Part shown: piece by piece, positions 53,499-55,778 of the stretch | Numbering within the stretch: the first letter of the stretch is position 1 | Layout: the number at the start of each line of letters is the position of its first letter | NCBI GenBank assembly: GCA_017528205.1 | Contig: JAFXPE010000032.1 | Span: forward strand, 225,517-289,516 | Direction: 5' to 3' | Source: Alphaproteobacteria bacterium | GTDB taxonomy: Bacteria; Pseudomonadota; Alphaproteobacteria; RF32; CAG-239 | DNA: 64,000 nt | Notes under the pieces: model-generated | What the model was told of the DNA's origin: nothing | What the model saw: only the letters and a program-made list of their open reading frames with translations | Database searches by the model: none | Program-made: the position numbers and the translations under genes

Positions 53499-55778
53499 AT
53501 GACAGAGCGCAACAATGCATATAAAAACAGGTTGTCTTCGCAGCAAACTGATGAATTGCTGTCGATATATCGTGACTATACGTATGAGGTTCGCCGCTAC
53601 GAAGATTTGCTGGCAAATACGTCTTTGATGACTATGGCGGCCTTTTATATGGAAAGTCTTTATACGGAAACTAAGCCTGATTTTCCATGGAGAGTTGAGT
53701 TTACGACTGCCGAAGAAAAACGCAATTATCAAGATTTTACCGATGAAAAAATTCATACGGCCGGTAATCGGGTTTATGTCGGTCTGCAACACACTGATGT
53801 GCGCGAAAATAACTCTGCTCAAATTACCTATATTCCACAGGATTTTTTATTGCATATTTTGGACGTGCCGCTTCCGGCATCTGTTGAGCGTTATACCGTG
53901 GTTTATCCTGAAAAAGGTTTGGTCGGCAACACCGAGTTTTTGATAGACGGACGTTTTAAGGCCGTTTATATCCGCAAAGAAAACGCCGAACAACCGATAA
54001 AGGAGGGTTTGAACAGCGCCAATATGCTGGCGGAACTCCGCATTTTGGTAAATGTGGTGGAAGGCTTGTGCAAAGACATGAATATGTCCAGAACAAGGTT
54101 TGAGAACATTGTTTTAAACAGCTATGCCTCCGGAGCCGTGGCTCCGTTTGAGAATACCATTATGGAAATCATGAGTTCGTTTGCTGACAAAATGCAAAAT
54201 ATCTGTCGCAATGTTTATAAAGAAAATGATTTAGACAAGGCACTGCAATTGGCTGAGGACGACGGGTTAATTCCGTCAGCCAAAACTCTCAGAGATTATG
54301 TTAATATTCGCAATTTAATACGCCATTCACAAGATACCATGGAAGAATTGGGGAGTTTTAACCATAAAGAAGCGCAAAAAAATTTGAAAGCACGCGCCAG
54401 ATATTTGCAATCTTATCTTGCGGTTTGCGGCACAACTTTAAGACAGCGCATAAAATCGTATATCGGGGTTTTGCACCAAATGCAAGCCATAGTAACCAAT
54501 ATCAAGCCGGAGACATTTATCCGCAATAAATCCGAAAGTAACAGCAAGTTTGTTGAGAGAATTAAAGCCTATCATCTCCAAAACCCGGAAAAAATACCGG
54601 AAGTCGAAATAAATCTGCCAATGTCGGACAGTAAATTTAAGACAATAAACCGCATTTTGCATAAGATTTTGCCACAAGTTAAAGTTGTTGATGATTTCAA
54701 CCTGCCTCGCGATGAATTTTCCGAATTGGAAAAAGATTACCAGTTGCGCACTTGGTTTTTGCAAACTTACAATTCGTTTGCGTGTCGGGTGATGACATAT
54801 TGTATGACACGCGGGCAGAATTTGCGCCGACAGAAAACTTGGGGCTATTTGAAAGAGCTTAAGCTGATGACTGAGGAAGAAAGTCGTACTTGGCGCGAAT
54901 ATACTGATTTGCGCAACAATCTCAGCCACAATGGTTTTAATGGTGAACTGCGGCAAAAATTAAGAGAAGCAGAAGAACCGTATCTTAAAGTGTTGAATGA
55001 GTTGGAGTTAAGACTGAGCAAGGTCTATCCGGATATCAAGTGGTTGCGTAAAGGCGTTTATGAATATAAGCACAGCGACGGATTGATTGTAACCATAGAT
55101 TTTAATAAGCGTGATATATCATATCATAATGAGCTTTCTCCAACCTCGCAATTTAAGGTACAGGGAAAGATAGATTTGGCGGAAAAAGATATGAAAACTT
55201 ATCTCAATAATCAGCAGAAAGCTCATCCGCAAAAGGAAAAATACGCCAATGGCGTGGAATTGCACACGGAAAATAACAAGCTTAAATCCATAAAATTGCC
55301 GAGTGGGGTTACGATAAATTTTGAAAAGCAACGAATTTTATGGGATAAGACGGTTTTGTTGCATACCAATGCCGATTCTTTTAATGTATTGCAAACCACC
55401 AACAGCAAGATTATTACCGATAAAAATTTCCGCATCAGCGAATATTGGGAAAAAAATCGTCGCCGCTCGCTGGGTGCCGGAGATATGTGTTTGCTGGAAT
55501 ATAGGCATCGTGCGGTGGTTGATAGTATCGGACGCTTGAAGGAATTTAACTATAAAAATGACCACGGCGTAATGATTAAGACCGGTTTCAGAAGCACCAA
55601 AAACGGAGCGGAAATTTCCTTTGCCGACGGCACCAAGATTTCTTTACAAGGCAAATCCATGATTATAACTCACAACGGCAAGCAACTCAGTTATGAAAAC
55701 CGACAGGAATTTGCCGCTTCTTATATCAACACTTCCGGCGGCTTGCCTCCGTTTAATAAATTCGGCAACGGCAGATAG
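53499..55778 (+). CDS. Large cytoplasmic protein of unknown function with two HEPN-like R-x4-H motifs (candidate RNase or defence protein)
   Basis: The start is MTERNNAYKNRL (RBS aaggag). There is an internally duplicated motif, DYVNIRNLIRHSQD and EYTDLRNNLSHNGF, with the two copies about 190 aa apart. Both fit the HEPN R[N]xxxH consensus. Confidence 0.5.
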   Translation: MTERNNAYKNRLSSQQTDELLSIYRDYTYEVRRYEDLLANTSLMTMAAFYMESLYTETKPDFPWRVEFTTAEEKRNYQDFTDEKIHTAGNRVYVGLQHTDVRENNSAQITYIPQDFLLHILDVPLPASVERYTVVYPEKGLVGNTEFLIDGRFKAVYIRKENAEQPIKEGLNSANMLAELRILVNVVEGLCKDMNMSRTRFENIVLNSYASGAVAPFENTIMEIMSSFADKMQNICRNVYKENDLDKALQLAEDDGLIPSAKTLRDYVNIRNLIRHSQDTMEELGSFNHKEAQKNLKARARYLQSYLAVCGTTLRQRIKSYIGVLHQMQAIVTNIKPETFIRNKSESNSKFVERIKAYHLQNPEKIPEVEINLPMSDSKFKTINRILHKILPQVKVVDDFNLPRDEFSELEKDYQLRTWFLQTYNSFACRVMTYCMTRGQNLRRQKTWGYLKELKLMTEEESRTWREYTDLRNNLSHNGFNGELRQKLREAEEPYLKVLNELELRLSKVYPDIKWLRKGVYEYKHSDGLIVTIDFNKRDISYHNELSPTSQFKVQGKIDLAEKDMKTYLNNQQKAHPQKEKYANGVELHTENNKLKSIKLPSGVTINFEKQRILWDKTVLLHTNADSFNVLQTTNSKIITDKNFRISEYWEKNRRRSLGAGDMCLLEYRHRAVVDSIGRLKEFNYKNDHGVMIKTGFRSTKNGAEISFADGTKISLQGKSMIITHNGKQLSYENRQEFAASYINTSGGLPPFNKFGNGR

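What the first reader, a model, noticed from the sequence alone, without database searches (positions are those of the whole stretch)
53499..55778. 759-aa protein with an internally duplicated HEPN-type R-N-x3-H motif: a candidate tandem-HEPN RNase or defence or toxin protein
Two copies of a 14-aa motif, DYVNIRNLIRHSQD and EYTDLRNNLSHNGF, lie about 190 residues apart. Both contain R-x4-H with Asn after the Arg, which is the catalytic signature of HEPN RNases (Cas13, Abi proteins, HepT, RnlA, KEN/RNase L, Las1). Two HEPN domains in one polypeptide can form an intramolecular composite active site. The gene is flanked on both sides by terminators or core genes (rpmH on one side, BI-1 on the other), and it has no CRISPR array, so it is not a Cas13. 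It could be a stand-alone abortive-infection or toxin-type RNase.
Basis: partly seen in the sequence, partly recalled or inferred. Interest (0 to 1): 0.55.

Follow-up and report, generated by a model that had tools for sequence, protein, structure and literature searches.

The report
Single-chain tandem HEPN RNase, hypervariable locus
The gene encodes an unannotated protein with two HepT-type HEPN (RNA-cutting) domains fused in one chain; it is found only in uncultured gut and rumen Alphaproteobacteria and diverges far faster than its neighbouring genes, which suggests a toxin, defence or effector RNase rather than a housekeeping enzyme.

Summary

The family has 127 representatives among 1.84 billion proteins, all with one architecture. 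It occurs only in gut/rumen alphaproteobacterial MAGs. It matches no PADLOC or NCBIfam model and is absent from phages and plasmids. It has no MNT antitoxin, no CRISPR array and no family-wide partner gene.

Unexpectedly, the gene is a divergence island. Against a relative whose flanking proteins are 94-100% identical, it is 64% identical (dS 1.26 against 0.10-0.46), with sharp boundaries and a discordant tree. All copies are intact and dN/dS is about 0.1-0.2.

Best reading: a self-contained pseudo-dimeric HepT-like RNase acting in conflict. Whether it serves defence or is exported is unresolved. RNase activity and active-site geometry are untested.

The parts
53488..53493 (+). Ribosome-binding site AAGGAG, 5 nt upstream of the ATG
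   Evidence: Read directly from the sequence. Supports the 53499 start over the upstream TTG at 53412.
53499..55778 (+). CDS of the 759-aa tandem-HEPN protein (stop codon included)
   Evidence: ORF. (homologues of 726-806 aa starting at the aligned Met). (AF2 model, mean pLDDT 82.8, pTM 0.66).
53499..54008 (+). N-terminal domain (aa 1-170): three helices followed by a beta-sheet module. Invariant W64, P126 and E130. No recognisable family.
   Evidence: Secondary structure. Invariant columns. No Pfam, NCBIfam or PDB-sequence hit. It has the highest dN of any domain between the WIN and L003 alleles (0.36).
54018..54518 (+). HEPN domain 1 (aa about 174-340), a divergent HepT-like helical bundle
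54309..54326 (+). Catalytic motif 1, R271-N-L-I-R-H276 (family consensus N-I-R-[HN]-L-x-[RH]-H-Q-W-D)
   Evidence: R271 and H276 are invariant in 54 sequences and in 35 sequences.
54519..54698 (+). Inter-HEPN segment (aa 341-400) with the conserved R342 / E-S-N-S-K-F motif. Helix 378-390 may serve as the first helix of HEPN2.
   Evidence: R342, E346, N348 and F351 are nearly invariant. (secondary structure).
54699..55028 (+). HEPN domain 2 (aa about 401-510), the closer match to HepT/DUF86
54912..54929 (+). Catalytic motif 2, R472-N-N-L-S-H477 (family consensus L-R-N-x-L-S-H-N-Y)
   Evidence: R472 and H477 are invariant. N473 and S476 are more than 90% conserved.
54963..54965 (+). Codon 489 (AGA, Arg). 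It is TGA in a 99.97%-identical assembly, giving a 488-aa product that lacks the C-terminal domain.
   Evidence: This is the only difference inside the gene.
55029..55733 (+). C-terminal beta-rich domain (aa 511-745) of about 20 strands in hairpins, with a disordered loop at 546-575
   Evidence: Similarities are weak and non-significant: single-layer beta-sheets (CPAP TCP10/G-box, OspA) by Foldseek (best E 2.7e-3) and Tcp10_C in 2 of 54 members. It is the most conserved domain between the WIN and L003 alleles (dN 0.14).
55734..55775 (+). Predicted disordered C-terminal tail (aa 746-759, ...PPFNKFGNGR). Mildly basic; ends in Arg.
   Evidence: pLDDT below 50. Across 35 members the last 16 aa have a mean net charge of +1.8, against +0.1 for internal windows, and are poor in acidic residues. 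The terminal residue is Arg in 31 of 35.
55797..55815 (.). Hairpin CCGCGAU-AUUAA-AUCGCGG flanked by an A-run and a U-run: a plausible bidirectional terminator between the convergent gene and BI-1
   Evidence: MFE -23.6 kcal/mol, z -3.45. The consensus scan did not report it.

Best explanation
The gene encodes a self-contained ribonuclease built from two divergent HepT/DUF86-type HEPN domains in one polypeptide (aa about 174-340 and about 401-510).

Shown here: both regions adopt the HEPN fold, and each keeps an invariant R-x4-H dyad.

Inferred molecular mechanism. By analogy with HepT homodimers and with Cas13, the two domains pack as an intramolecular pseudo-dimer. That brings R271/H276 and R472/H477 together into one composite, metal-independent RNase site. 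No MntA-type antitoxin or other partner gene exists, so control must be built into the protein. The lineage-specific N-terminal alpha/beta domain and the C-terminal beta-rich domain plus tail are the candidates for autoinhibition, trigger sensing or targeting.

Inferred biological role. The gene behaves like a conflict gene. It sits at a fixed chromosomal site in uncultured gut/rumen Alphaproteobacteria, always intact and under purifying selection. Yet it is far more divergent than its neighbours, and alleles have been exchanged between strains. I commit to a toxin-type RNase that stays silent until triggered (by phage infection or stress) and then cleaves cellular RNA to arrest the cell, that is, a stand-alone abortive-infection or dormancy RNase.

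Likelihoods. I put the molecular identity (an active tandem-HEPN RNase) at about 0.8. I put the defence role at about 0.35, only slightly ahead of an exported-effector role.

For: Sequence. 45 of 54 members hit PF01934 and 39 of 54 hit PF08780. Region 2 of two members exceeds the Pfam cut-off. The family profile hits PDB 7ae9_A 'HEPN toxin'. The two regions align in register.

Catalytic residues. R271, H276, R472 and H477 are 4 of 9 invariant columns in 54 sequences and are invariant in 35 genome-derived sequences.

Stand-alone status. No partner gene is shared across the family. No nucleotidyltransferase gene appears in the Pfam-annotated loci. There is no CRISPR array and no ncRNA.

Conflict signature.
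- WIN against L003: flanking proteins are 94-100% identical and this protein 64%.
- DNA identity drops at the start codon and recovers after the stop codon.
- dS is 1.26 and dN 0.26, against flank dS 0.10-0.46 and flank dN at most 0.027.
- The gene tree and the backbone disagree.
- The protein is below the flank median in 18 of 19 sister pairs.
- Metagenome contigs break at the gene's borders.
- A nonsense allele exists in a near-identical strain.

Functional constraint. All 34 other loci are intact and dN/dS is 0.09-0.2.

Prior, from established knowledge: prokaryotic HEPN proteins are overwhelmingly toxins or defence RNases. HepT dimers and Cas13 form composite HEPN sites (PMC12165695).
Against: - No activity data exist. 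The distance between the two dyads in the model could not be measured, because no coordinates were available to me.
- The window protein itself scores below the Pfam cut-off (14.7 against 23.5 bits).

Against the defence role in particular:
- There is no PADLOC hit.
- The family is absent from phages, plasmids and viral contigs.
- It is confined to one bacterial lineage, with long-term stable synteny between housekeeping genes.
- No empty site is seen among close strains.
- Ancient paralogues are retained within single MAGs.
- At least part of the lineage has reduced genomes below 1 Mb (PMC12306168), where dispensable defence genes are usually lost.
- No domain shows dN/dS above 1.
Confidence: 0.5

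Rival explanations
1. Exported toxin or effector. The same tandem-HEPN RNase is delivered out of the cell to cleave RNA in a partner, host or competitor cell. Delivery would go through the Rickettsiales-type type IV secretion system encoded about 4 kb upstream, or through a holin/spanin-type release route in other clades. The fast allelic turnover would then reflect an arms race with the target.
For: - The window carries a T4SS locus: VirB8 x2, VirB9/CagX, VirB10/TrbI fused to Bflower repeats, VirB11, and a 1523-aa Bflower/RHS-repeat protein. It ends about 4.4 kb upstream of the gene. This arrangement is conserved in L003 and L043.
- At least one member lies in Ca. Enterousia (order Rs-D84). 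That order has genomes below 1 Mb and an inferred obligate symbiont or parasite lifestyle (PMC12306168).
- The family is lineage-restricted, vertically inherited, includes paralogues, is always intact and evolves fast. This is the typical profile of effector families.
- The C-terminal tail is disordered, mildly basic and poor in acidic residues, and ends in Arg in 31 of 35 members.
- In the distant subclade the gene is flanked by a signal-peptide-bearing ankyrin-repeat gene and by a tail-protein / holin / spanin-like cassette.
- No adjacent immunity gene is found. That is acceptable if the target is not the producer itself.
Against: - There is no direct evidence of secretion.
- 29% of internal 16-aa windows are at least as basic as the tail.
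- T4SS genes lie near the gene only in the window's own clade, and housekeeping genes separate them from it.
- The synteny may be mere ancestry in genomes with stable gene order.
- A broadly active HEPN RNase made in the cytoplasm without an immunity protein would still need autoinhibition.
- HEPN effectors of T4SSs are not an established class (my own knowledge).
Confidence: 0.27
2. Lineage-specific housekeeping or regulatory RNase. Here the tandem-HEPN enzyme would process or degrade endogenous RNA (rRNA, tRNA or mRNA turnover) in these reduced-genome bacteria. Its position next to rpmH-rnpA would reflect a link to RNA metabolism.
For: - The gene is intact in all 35 loci and under purifying selection.
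- It is retained in small genomes.
- It has a stable chromosomal position between core genes and is divergently transcribed from rpmH-rnpA in the window's clade.
- It is not on mobile elements.
- Eukaryotic Las1 shows that HEPN RNases can be housekeeping enzymes (abstract of 10.1101/760058).
Against: - The rpmH/rnpA adjacency holds in only part of the family; other clades have unrelated contexts.
- The protein is the most divergent, or nearly the most divergent, gene in its neighbourhood. Its dN is 10 to 50 times that of the flanks, and it shows allele exchange.
- A nonsense allele exists in an otherwise identical strain.
- The family is absent from all other bacteria.
Confidence: 0.13
3. Non-catalytic HEPN scaffold. 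Here the two HEPN domains would bind a nucleotide, RNA or protein ligand, as HEPN 'substrate-binding' subunits of nucleotidyltransferases were first described, without cleaving RNA.
For: 39 of 54 members hit NTase_sub_bind (PF08780). HI0074 (1jog_A) is among the top fold hits. No activity has been tested.
Against: - Both Arg and both His of the catalytic dyads are invariant across sequences as low as 23% identical to the window protein, while most other positions vary. That is the pattern expected of catalytic residues.
- HI0074-type proteins are now regarded as HepT-like toxins of type VII toxin-antitoxin systems (my own knowledge; compare the abstract of PMC13000451).
- No nucleotidyltransferase partner is present.
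Confidence: 0.05

Closest known systems
[quoted passage not shown] Shewanella SO_3166 (PDB 5YEP) and Aphanizomenon HEPN (7AE2, 7AE9, 8XDJ)
   Same: They are the best fold matches for both regions. The motif block is the same: G-[LI]-I...Y-x-x-[LI]-R-N-x-L-x-H-x-Y. The Tyr two residues after the His is present in HEPN2 of 25 of 35 members. In HepT the active site is composed from two HEPN units.
   Different: HepT is a single domain of about 130-150 aa that homodimerises and is neutralised by an adjacent MntA nucleotidyltransferase. Here two diverged copies are fused in a 759-aa chain with extra N- and C-terminal domains, and no MNT gene is nearby. The window protein has Gly at the Tyr position and scores below the Pfam cut-off.
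Cas13 / Cas13an (type VI CRISPR effectors)
   Same: Two HEPN domains in one polypeptide form an intramolecular composite RNase site (PMC12165695). The proposed origin, by fusion of two related HEPN genes, parallels the duplication seen here.
Non-CRISPR 'intramolecular HEPN dimer' clusters catalogued by structure mining (Table S2 of PMC12165695: DUF4209 proteins, Daphnia and mussel proteins, Bacillus mobilis A0A1Y6ANL6, Clostridium G7MBT4)
   Same: The general architecture is shared: two HEPN domains in one chain, not associated with CRISPR.
   Different: None of the twelve listed clusters is this family. None is an alphaproteobacterial protein of about 750 aa. Those clusters were found by similarity to Cas13 HEPN dimers, whereas this family resembles HepT.
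Fused MNT-HEPN type VII toxin-antitoxin proteins (PMC13000451)
   Same: A HepT-type HEPN RNase whose regulation is built into a larger single polypeptide.
   Different: There the fusion partner is the MNT antitoxin domain, which acts by oligoAMPylation (abstract). Here no nucleotidyltransferase domain is detected, and the fusion partner is a second HEPN domain.
Single-gene HEPN abortive-infection or defence proteins (AbiD/AbiF, AbiJ, AbiU2, AbiV, ApeA; named from my own knowledge, with AbiD/F also)
   Same: Stand-alone HEPN proteins with no separate antitoxin, thought to be activated by infection.
   Different: There is no PADLOC match. Those proteins have one HEPN domain per chain, are patchily distributed and are mobile across phyla. 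This family is confined to one lineage at stable chromosomal sites.

Membership tests
HEPN superfamily | All-alpha up-down helical-bundle (HEPN) fold | tested here: met
HEPN superfamily | Conserved R-x4-6-H motif with a polar residue after the Arg | tested here: met
   R271-x4-H276 and R472-x4-H477 are invariant in 54 and in 35 sequences. The next residue is N or H in motif 1 and N in motif 2.
HEPN superfamily | Metal-independent endoribonuclease activity that depends on the Arg and His residues | not testable with these tools
   Requires biochemistry.
HepT / DUF86 (PF01934), type VII toxin | Match to PF01934 at or above the gathering score | tested here: inconclusive
   The window protein scores 14.7 bits against a 23.5 cut-off. 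Region 2 of two homologues scores 25.6 and 26.4 bits. 45 of 54 members hit at E up to 1, with a best E of 1.2e-8.
HepT / DUF86 (PF01934), type VII toxin | Adjacent MntA (minimal nucleotidyltransferase) antitoxin gene | tested here: not met
   No nucleotidyltransferase family appears among the called genes of the Pfam-annotated loci. No neighbour is shared across the family within 4 kb in 36 loci (the window plus 35 others).
HepT / DUF86 (PF01934), type VII toxin | Small single-domain protein (about 130-150 aa) that homodimerises | tested here: not met
   The protein is 759 aa with two HEPN regions plus N- and C-terminal domains. All 127 representatives share this architecture or are fragments of it.
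HepT / DUF86 (PF01934), type VII toxin | Tyr two residues after the catalytic His (the AMPylation site, R-N-x3-H-x-Y) | tested here: not met
   The window protein has G479. The family majority has Y (25 of 35). Its role as an AMPylation site is from my own knowledge of HepT/MntA.
Cas13 (type VI CRISPR effector) | Two HEPN domains in one polypeptide | tested here: met
Cas13 (type VI CRISPR effector) | Adjacent CRISPR array or crRNA | tested here: not met
   No repeat array in 48-60 kb. No Rfam match in the window or around the gene at a permissive threshold.
Known anti-phage defence systems (PADLOC-DB v2) | Match to any model of a known or candidate defence protein | tested here: not met
   0 families at E up to 10.
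Intramolecular composite HEPN site (works like HepT dimers and Cas13) | The two R-x4-H dyads face one cleft within a few angstroms of each other | not testable with these tools
Type IV secretion substrate | Unstructured, positively charged C-terminal translocation signal, and T4SS-dependent transfer | tested here: inconclusive
   The tail is predicted disordered, has net charge +1.8 and ends in Arg in 31 of 35 members. However, 29% of internal windows are at least as basic. Transfer itself cannot be tested here.

The most novel reading that the evidence does not exclude
The family is an exported HEPN ribonuclease effector of reduced-genome, partner-dependent gut Alphaproteobacteria (Rs-D84-like). 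It would be delivered into partner, host or rival cells through the Rickettsiales-type T4SS, or in other clades through a domesticated tail-protein / holin / spanin cassette. Divergent alleles would be maintained and exchanged between strains because of an arms race with the target. That would make it a single-chain HepT pseudo-dimer repurposed from toxin-antitoxin or defence use to attack between cells.
Probability: 0.22. Interest if true: 0.75.

Novelty: new variant of a known kind. Interest (0 to 1): 0.52.

Why it matters
HEPN RNases are central to bacterial immunity and toxin systems (Cas13, Csm6, HepT, Abi proteins), and they normally need to dimerise to form an active site.

- **A second route to a single-chain HEPN dimer.** Here two HepT-type domains are fused, with no MNT antitoxin and no guide RNA. 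This arose independently of the AbiD/F-like route proposed for Cas13. It is a natural test case for how a composite HEPN site is kept silent and then switched on within one polypeptide. It is also a possible compact RNase scaffold.
- **A lead into the biology of the host lineage.** The gene is one of the most variable loci in uncultured gut and rumen Alphaproteobacteria. At least part of that lineage has reduced genomes, appears to depend on partner cells and carries an elaborate T4SS. If the protein is exported, it would be a new class of effector.
- **Limits.** All of this rests on untested activity, so the finding is a solid lead rather than a surprise.

Tried and rejected
- Foldseek of the whole model against PDB found nothing significant. 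The best hits were beta-sheet proteins (TCP10/G-box, WD40, OspA), so the C-terminal domain remains unassigned.
- NCBIfam, PADLOC and PHROGs gave no hit for the protein. A phmmer search against PDB gave only a chance uL13 hit.
- The exhaustive profile search for distant relatives or other architectures returned only the same family and its fragments. The N- and C-terminal domains therefore have no detectable relatives.
- The partner/antitoxin search clustered all ORFs within 4 kb of the gene in 36 loci (the window plus 35 others). It found only clade-specific synteny: BI-1 in 5 loci, and HtpG / ankyrin / tail-protein / holin in 8-12 loci. No neighbour is shared across the family. The clade-B neighbours have no homologue in the window.
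- The CRISPR array and ncRNA searches found nothing. The wcaG hit at E 0.35 is chance.
- T4SS genes are not near homologues outside the window's clade.
- The mobile-element searches (viral contigs, plasmids, phages) found nothing.
- Positive selection was not detected. Pairwise dN/dS by domain and by sliding window gave about 0.1-0.2, so I do not claim diversifying selection.
- The empty-site search through the exact flanking proteins found none. However, the contigs recovered are nearly clonal, so this is a weak test.
- Replication origin at the GC-skew switch: DnaA-box-like 9-mers are over-represented in the window but dispersed, not clustered. I did not pursue this.
- The Cas13-origins paper's list of intramolecular HEPN dimers does not include this family.
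Full report
**1. The observation**

The mechanical ORF runs 53412-55778 on the + strand (788 aa from a TTG). It is preceded by AAGGAG at 53488-53493, and every homologue starts at the aligned methionine, so 53499-55778 is the gene.

The two 14-aa strings are present at aa 266-279 and aa 467-480, and their arginines are 201 residues apart. The bare R-x4-H pattern is not rare. It occurs four times in this protein, against about 1.1 expected from composition. 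What singles out the two flagged copies is conservation:
- In an alignment of 54 full-length homologues (mean column identity 35%, down to 23% identity to the query), only nine columns are invariant. Four of them are R271, H276, R472 and H477.
- The same holds in an independent set of 35 sequences translated from genome loci.

The terminator claim holds only at the 3' side, where a 7-bp GC-rich hairpin with an A-run and a U-run sits between the convergent genes (55797-55815). The consensus scan found nothing above background.

**2. What the protein is**

Direct family scans are almost silent:
- Pfam gives only a sub-threshold HepT-like hit at aa 447-478 (14.7 bits against a 23.5 cut-off).
- NCBIfam and PADLOC give nothing.
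- The only hit among PDB sequences is a chance uL13 match at E 0.82.

Family-level evidence is much stronger:
- 45 of 54 members hit HepT-like (best E 1.2e-8) and 39 of 54 hit NTase_sub_bind. Both families belong to the HEPN superfamily.
- When the two halves are scanned separately, the hits fall mainly in region 2, and two members exceed Pfam's own cut-off. Region 1 gives only weak hits.
- A profile of the family finds PDB 7ae9_A 'HEPN toxin', aligning LRNeLSHnY with LRNRLVHEY.
- A profile-profile comparison of region 1 with region 2 aligns the two R-x4-H motifs, and the preceding G-[LI]-I...Y-x-x-[LI] helix-turn, in register (P 2.3e-4). This supports a diverged internal duplication.

An AlphaFold2 model built on the family alignment is confident (mean pLDDT 82.8, pTM 0.66). 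It shows four parts:
- an N-terminal alpha/beta domain (aa 1-170);
- a helical core (aa 174-508);
- a beta-rich C-terminal domain (aa 512-745);
- a disordered tail.

I conclude that region 2 is a clear HepT-like HEPN domain and region 1 a divergent one. Foldseek of the whole chain against PDB was uninformative. It gave only weak similarity of the C-terminal domain to single-layer beta-sheets.

**3. Distribution**

A word-indexed search found 18 clusters, all from metagenomes. An exhaustive HMM search of 1.84 billion representatives found 127 proteins. All are full-length relatives of 700-813 aa or fragments of them, and none has a different architecture.

Among about 185,000 species-representative genomes there are 31 loci. 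All lie in uncultured gut or rumen MAGs labelled Alphaproteobacteria (or just 'proteobacterium'), from cattle, sheep, goat, yak, deer and buffalo; other loci came from a pig-gut metagenome. One is a Candidatus Enterousia MAG. Three MAGs carry two copies.

The family is absent from IMG/VR viral contigs, PLSDB plasmids, GenBank phages and PHROGs. Order Rs-D84, which includes Enterousia, is described as having genomes below 1 Mb and an inferred obligate symbiont or parasite lifestyle (PMC12306168). I did not place the window's own genome taxonomically.

**4. Context**

No partner gene is shared across the family. Two contexts are clade-specific.

In the window's clade:
- The gene lies between rpmH-rnpA-yidD-yidC-engB and BI-1.
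- About 4.4 kb upstream ends a Rickettsiales-style T4SS locus: two VirB8, VirB9/CagX, a 1523-aa Bflower/RHS-repeat protein, a VirB10/TrbI fused to Bflower repeats, and VirB11.

In a distant clade (26-28% identity to the window protein):
- 8-12 species share htpG and a signal-peptide-bearing ankyrin-repeat gene upstream.
- Downstream lie a protein with a phage tail-protein N-terminal domain (phrog_1640, E 7e-19), a holin (phrog_6384, E 1e-4) and a spanin-like ORF.

No nucleotidyltransferase (MNT) gene appears in any Pfam-annotated locus. There is no CRISPR array, no Rfam family and no tRNA.

**5. The unexpected feature: a divergence island**

- **Protein identity.** Between the window and L003, sixteen neighbouring proteins are 94-100% identical, but this protein is 63.6% identical.
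- **Sharp boundaries.** DNA identity falls from about 0.9-1.0 to 0.58-0.83 at the start codon and recovers just after the stop codon.
- **Substitution rates.** Nei-Gojobori estimates give dS 1.26 and dN 0.26 for the gene. The flanks have dS 0.10-0.46 and dN at most 0.027. Synonymous divergence is also several-fold higher, so these are old alleles in a young backbone, not just a relaxed gene.
- **Discordant trees.** By its flanks the window is closest to L003. Yet L003's allele groups with L043's (79%), and both are 64% identical to the window's.
- **Generality.** Across 19 sister pairs from the whole tree, the protein is below the flank median in 18 and is often the least conserved ORF. The flank sets include some shadow ORFs.
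- **Constraint.** All 34 other loci hold intact ORFs of 726-806 aa. dN/dS is 0.09-0.2, and no domain or 40-codon window is convincingly above 1. I therefore claim allele exchange or long-lived alleles, not demonstrated positive selection.
- **Occupancy.** When contigs are retrieved through the exact flanking proteins, the site is always occupied. The recovered contigs are nearly clonal, with 0 nt differences in the gene. Several assemblies break exactly at the gene's borders, as expected where co-existing strains differ.
- **A nonsense allele.** One 99.97%-identical assembly carries a single A-to-T change that turns Arg489 into a stop codon just after HEPN2, so the product lacks the C-terminal domain.

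**6. Mechanism**

Shown here: two HEPN folds and two invariant catalytic dyads in one chain, with no antitoxin and no guide RNA.

Inferred from HepT dimers and Cas13 (and my own knowledge of HepT structures): the two domains form an intramolecular pseudo-dimer with one composite RNase site, and control lies in the accessory N- and C-terminal domains.

For the biological role the evidence points to a conflict gene but does not settle which kind.
- **Favoured: triggered abortive-infection or dormancy RNase (about 0.35).** This rests on the strong prior for prokaryotic HEPN proteins and on the allele turnover.
- **Exported effector (about 0.27).** Contextual hints are the nearby T4SS, the basic tail ending in Arg in 31 of 35 members, the ankyrin and holin neighbours, and the partner-dependent lineage.
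- **Housekeeping RNase (about 0.13).** It fits the retention and intactness of the gene but not its divergence.

**7. Comparison with what is known, and novelty**

The closest family is HepT/DUF86 of type VII toxin-antitoxin systems. Membership fails on three defining features that I tested: no MNT partner, not a small homodimerising protein, and a window-protein Pfam score below the cut-off.

The protein shares the 'two HEPN domains in one chain' principle with Cas13 but has no array. Structure mining has already reported twelve AlphaFold-database clusters with intramolecular HEPN dimers (PMC12165695). This family is not among them.

I therefore rate it a new variant of a known kind: an unannotated, lineage-specific, single-chain HepT pseudo-dimer with novel flanking domains and an unusual population-genetic signature. 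Interest is moderate (0.52). It is a well-supported and testable lead, but not one that would astonish a specialist unless the exported-effector reading proves true.

Noticed in passing
window 26894-49056 (+), with DUF3137 at 49070-50212: A Rickettsiales-vir-homologue-like type IV secretion locus. It contains two VirB8 paralogues (35822-36574, 36928-37674), VirB9/CagX (37690-39306), a 1523-aa protein full of Bflower/DUF3659/RHS repeats (39310-43881), a 1395-aa VirB10/TrbI fused to Bflower repeats (43884-48071) and VirB11 (48049-49056). Four large ORFs with no Pfam hit precede them (26894-35807, including one of 1493 aa). The repeat-decorated VirB10 is unusual.
   Followed up: partly
window 54963-54965 (codon 489); L042/L045/L048 (ENA ERZ28018792, k141_3123974): A 99.97%-identical assembly has AGA changed to TGA at codon 489, giving ORFs of 488 aa and 262 aa. 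The stop falls just after HEPN2 and cuts off the beta-rich C-terminal domain. It could be a natural null or split allele, or a consensus error.
   Followed up: partly
window 53210 and 55835-55864; loci L047, L050-L053: Several independent metagenome contigs carrying the identical strain end exactly at the borders of this gene. L052 ends at 53210 in rpmH. L050 and L051 end at 55864. L047 starts at 55835. Assemblers behave this way at loci that differ between co-occurring strains.
   Followed up: partly
L008:8855-10290 (+); equivalents in L028-L030, L033-L037 and L040: In a distant subclade the gene is followed by a conserved phage-derived mini-cassette: a 280-aa protein with a tail-protein or tail-fibre N-terminal domain (phrog_1640, E 7e-19), a 102-aa holin (phrog_6384, E 1e-4) and a 92-aa spanin-like ORF. 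No other phage genes are nearby. It could be a prophage remnant or a domesticated release module.
   Followed up: partly
L008:5601-6212 (-); equivalents in 11 other loci: A roughly 200-aa ankyrin-repeat protein with a signal-peptide-like N-terminus (MRYYLSACFLGSALLLSPQVKADD...) is transcribed divergently, immediately upstream of the HEPN gene in the distant subclade, next to htpG.
   Followed up: no
window 55734-55775 (aa 746-759), and all family members: The variable, predicted-disordered C-terminal tail ends in Arg in 31 of 35 members (often ...G-N-G-R). It is poor in acidic residues and rich in P/G/S/T/N/Q. The conserved terminal Arg is unexplained. It might be a secretion signal, a degron or an autoinhibitory plug.
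   Followed up: partly
window about 20430-22764: The cumulative GC skew reaches its minimum here and gene orientation switches: long ORFs lie on the - strand before 20.4 kb and on the + strand after 22.7 kb. The intervening 2.3-kb stretch has lower GC (0.41) and no ORF of 150 aa or more. It resembles a replication-origin-like switch, but no DnaA-box cluster is present.
   Followed up: partly
window, whole: DnaA-box-like 9-mers (TTATCCACA with up to 1 mismatch) are over-represented (32 found, 13.9 +/- 3.4 expected) but are dispersed rather than clustered. The 64 kb contain no tRNA gene and no Rfam family at gathering threshold.
   Followed up: no
L043:2393-4699, compared with window 49070-50212: The DUF3137 membrane protein downstream of VirB11 is duplicated in tandem in L043 (364 aa and 377 aa) but is single in the window and in L003.
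   Followed up: no
MAGs JAEEMQ01 (L011 and L025), JAGCYN01 (L019 and L022), JAZUMA01 (L032 and L041): Three MAGs carry two copies of the family, and the two copies fall in different deep clades of the tree. These are ancient paralogues retained side by side, not recent duplicates.
   Followed up: partly
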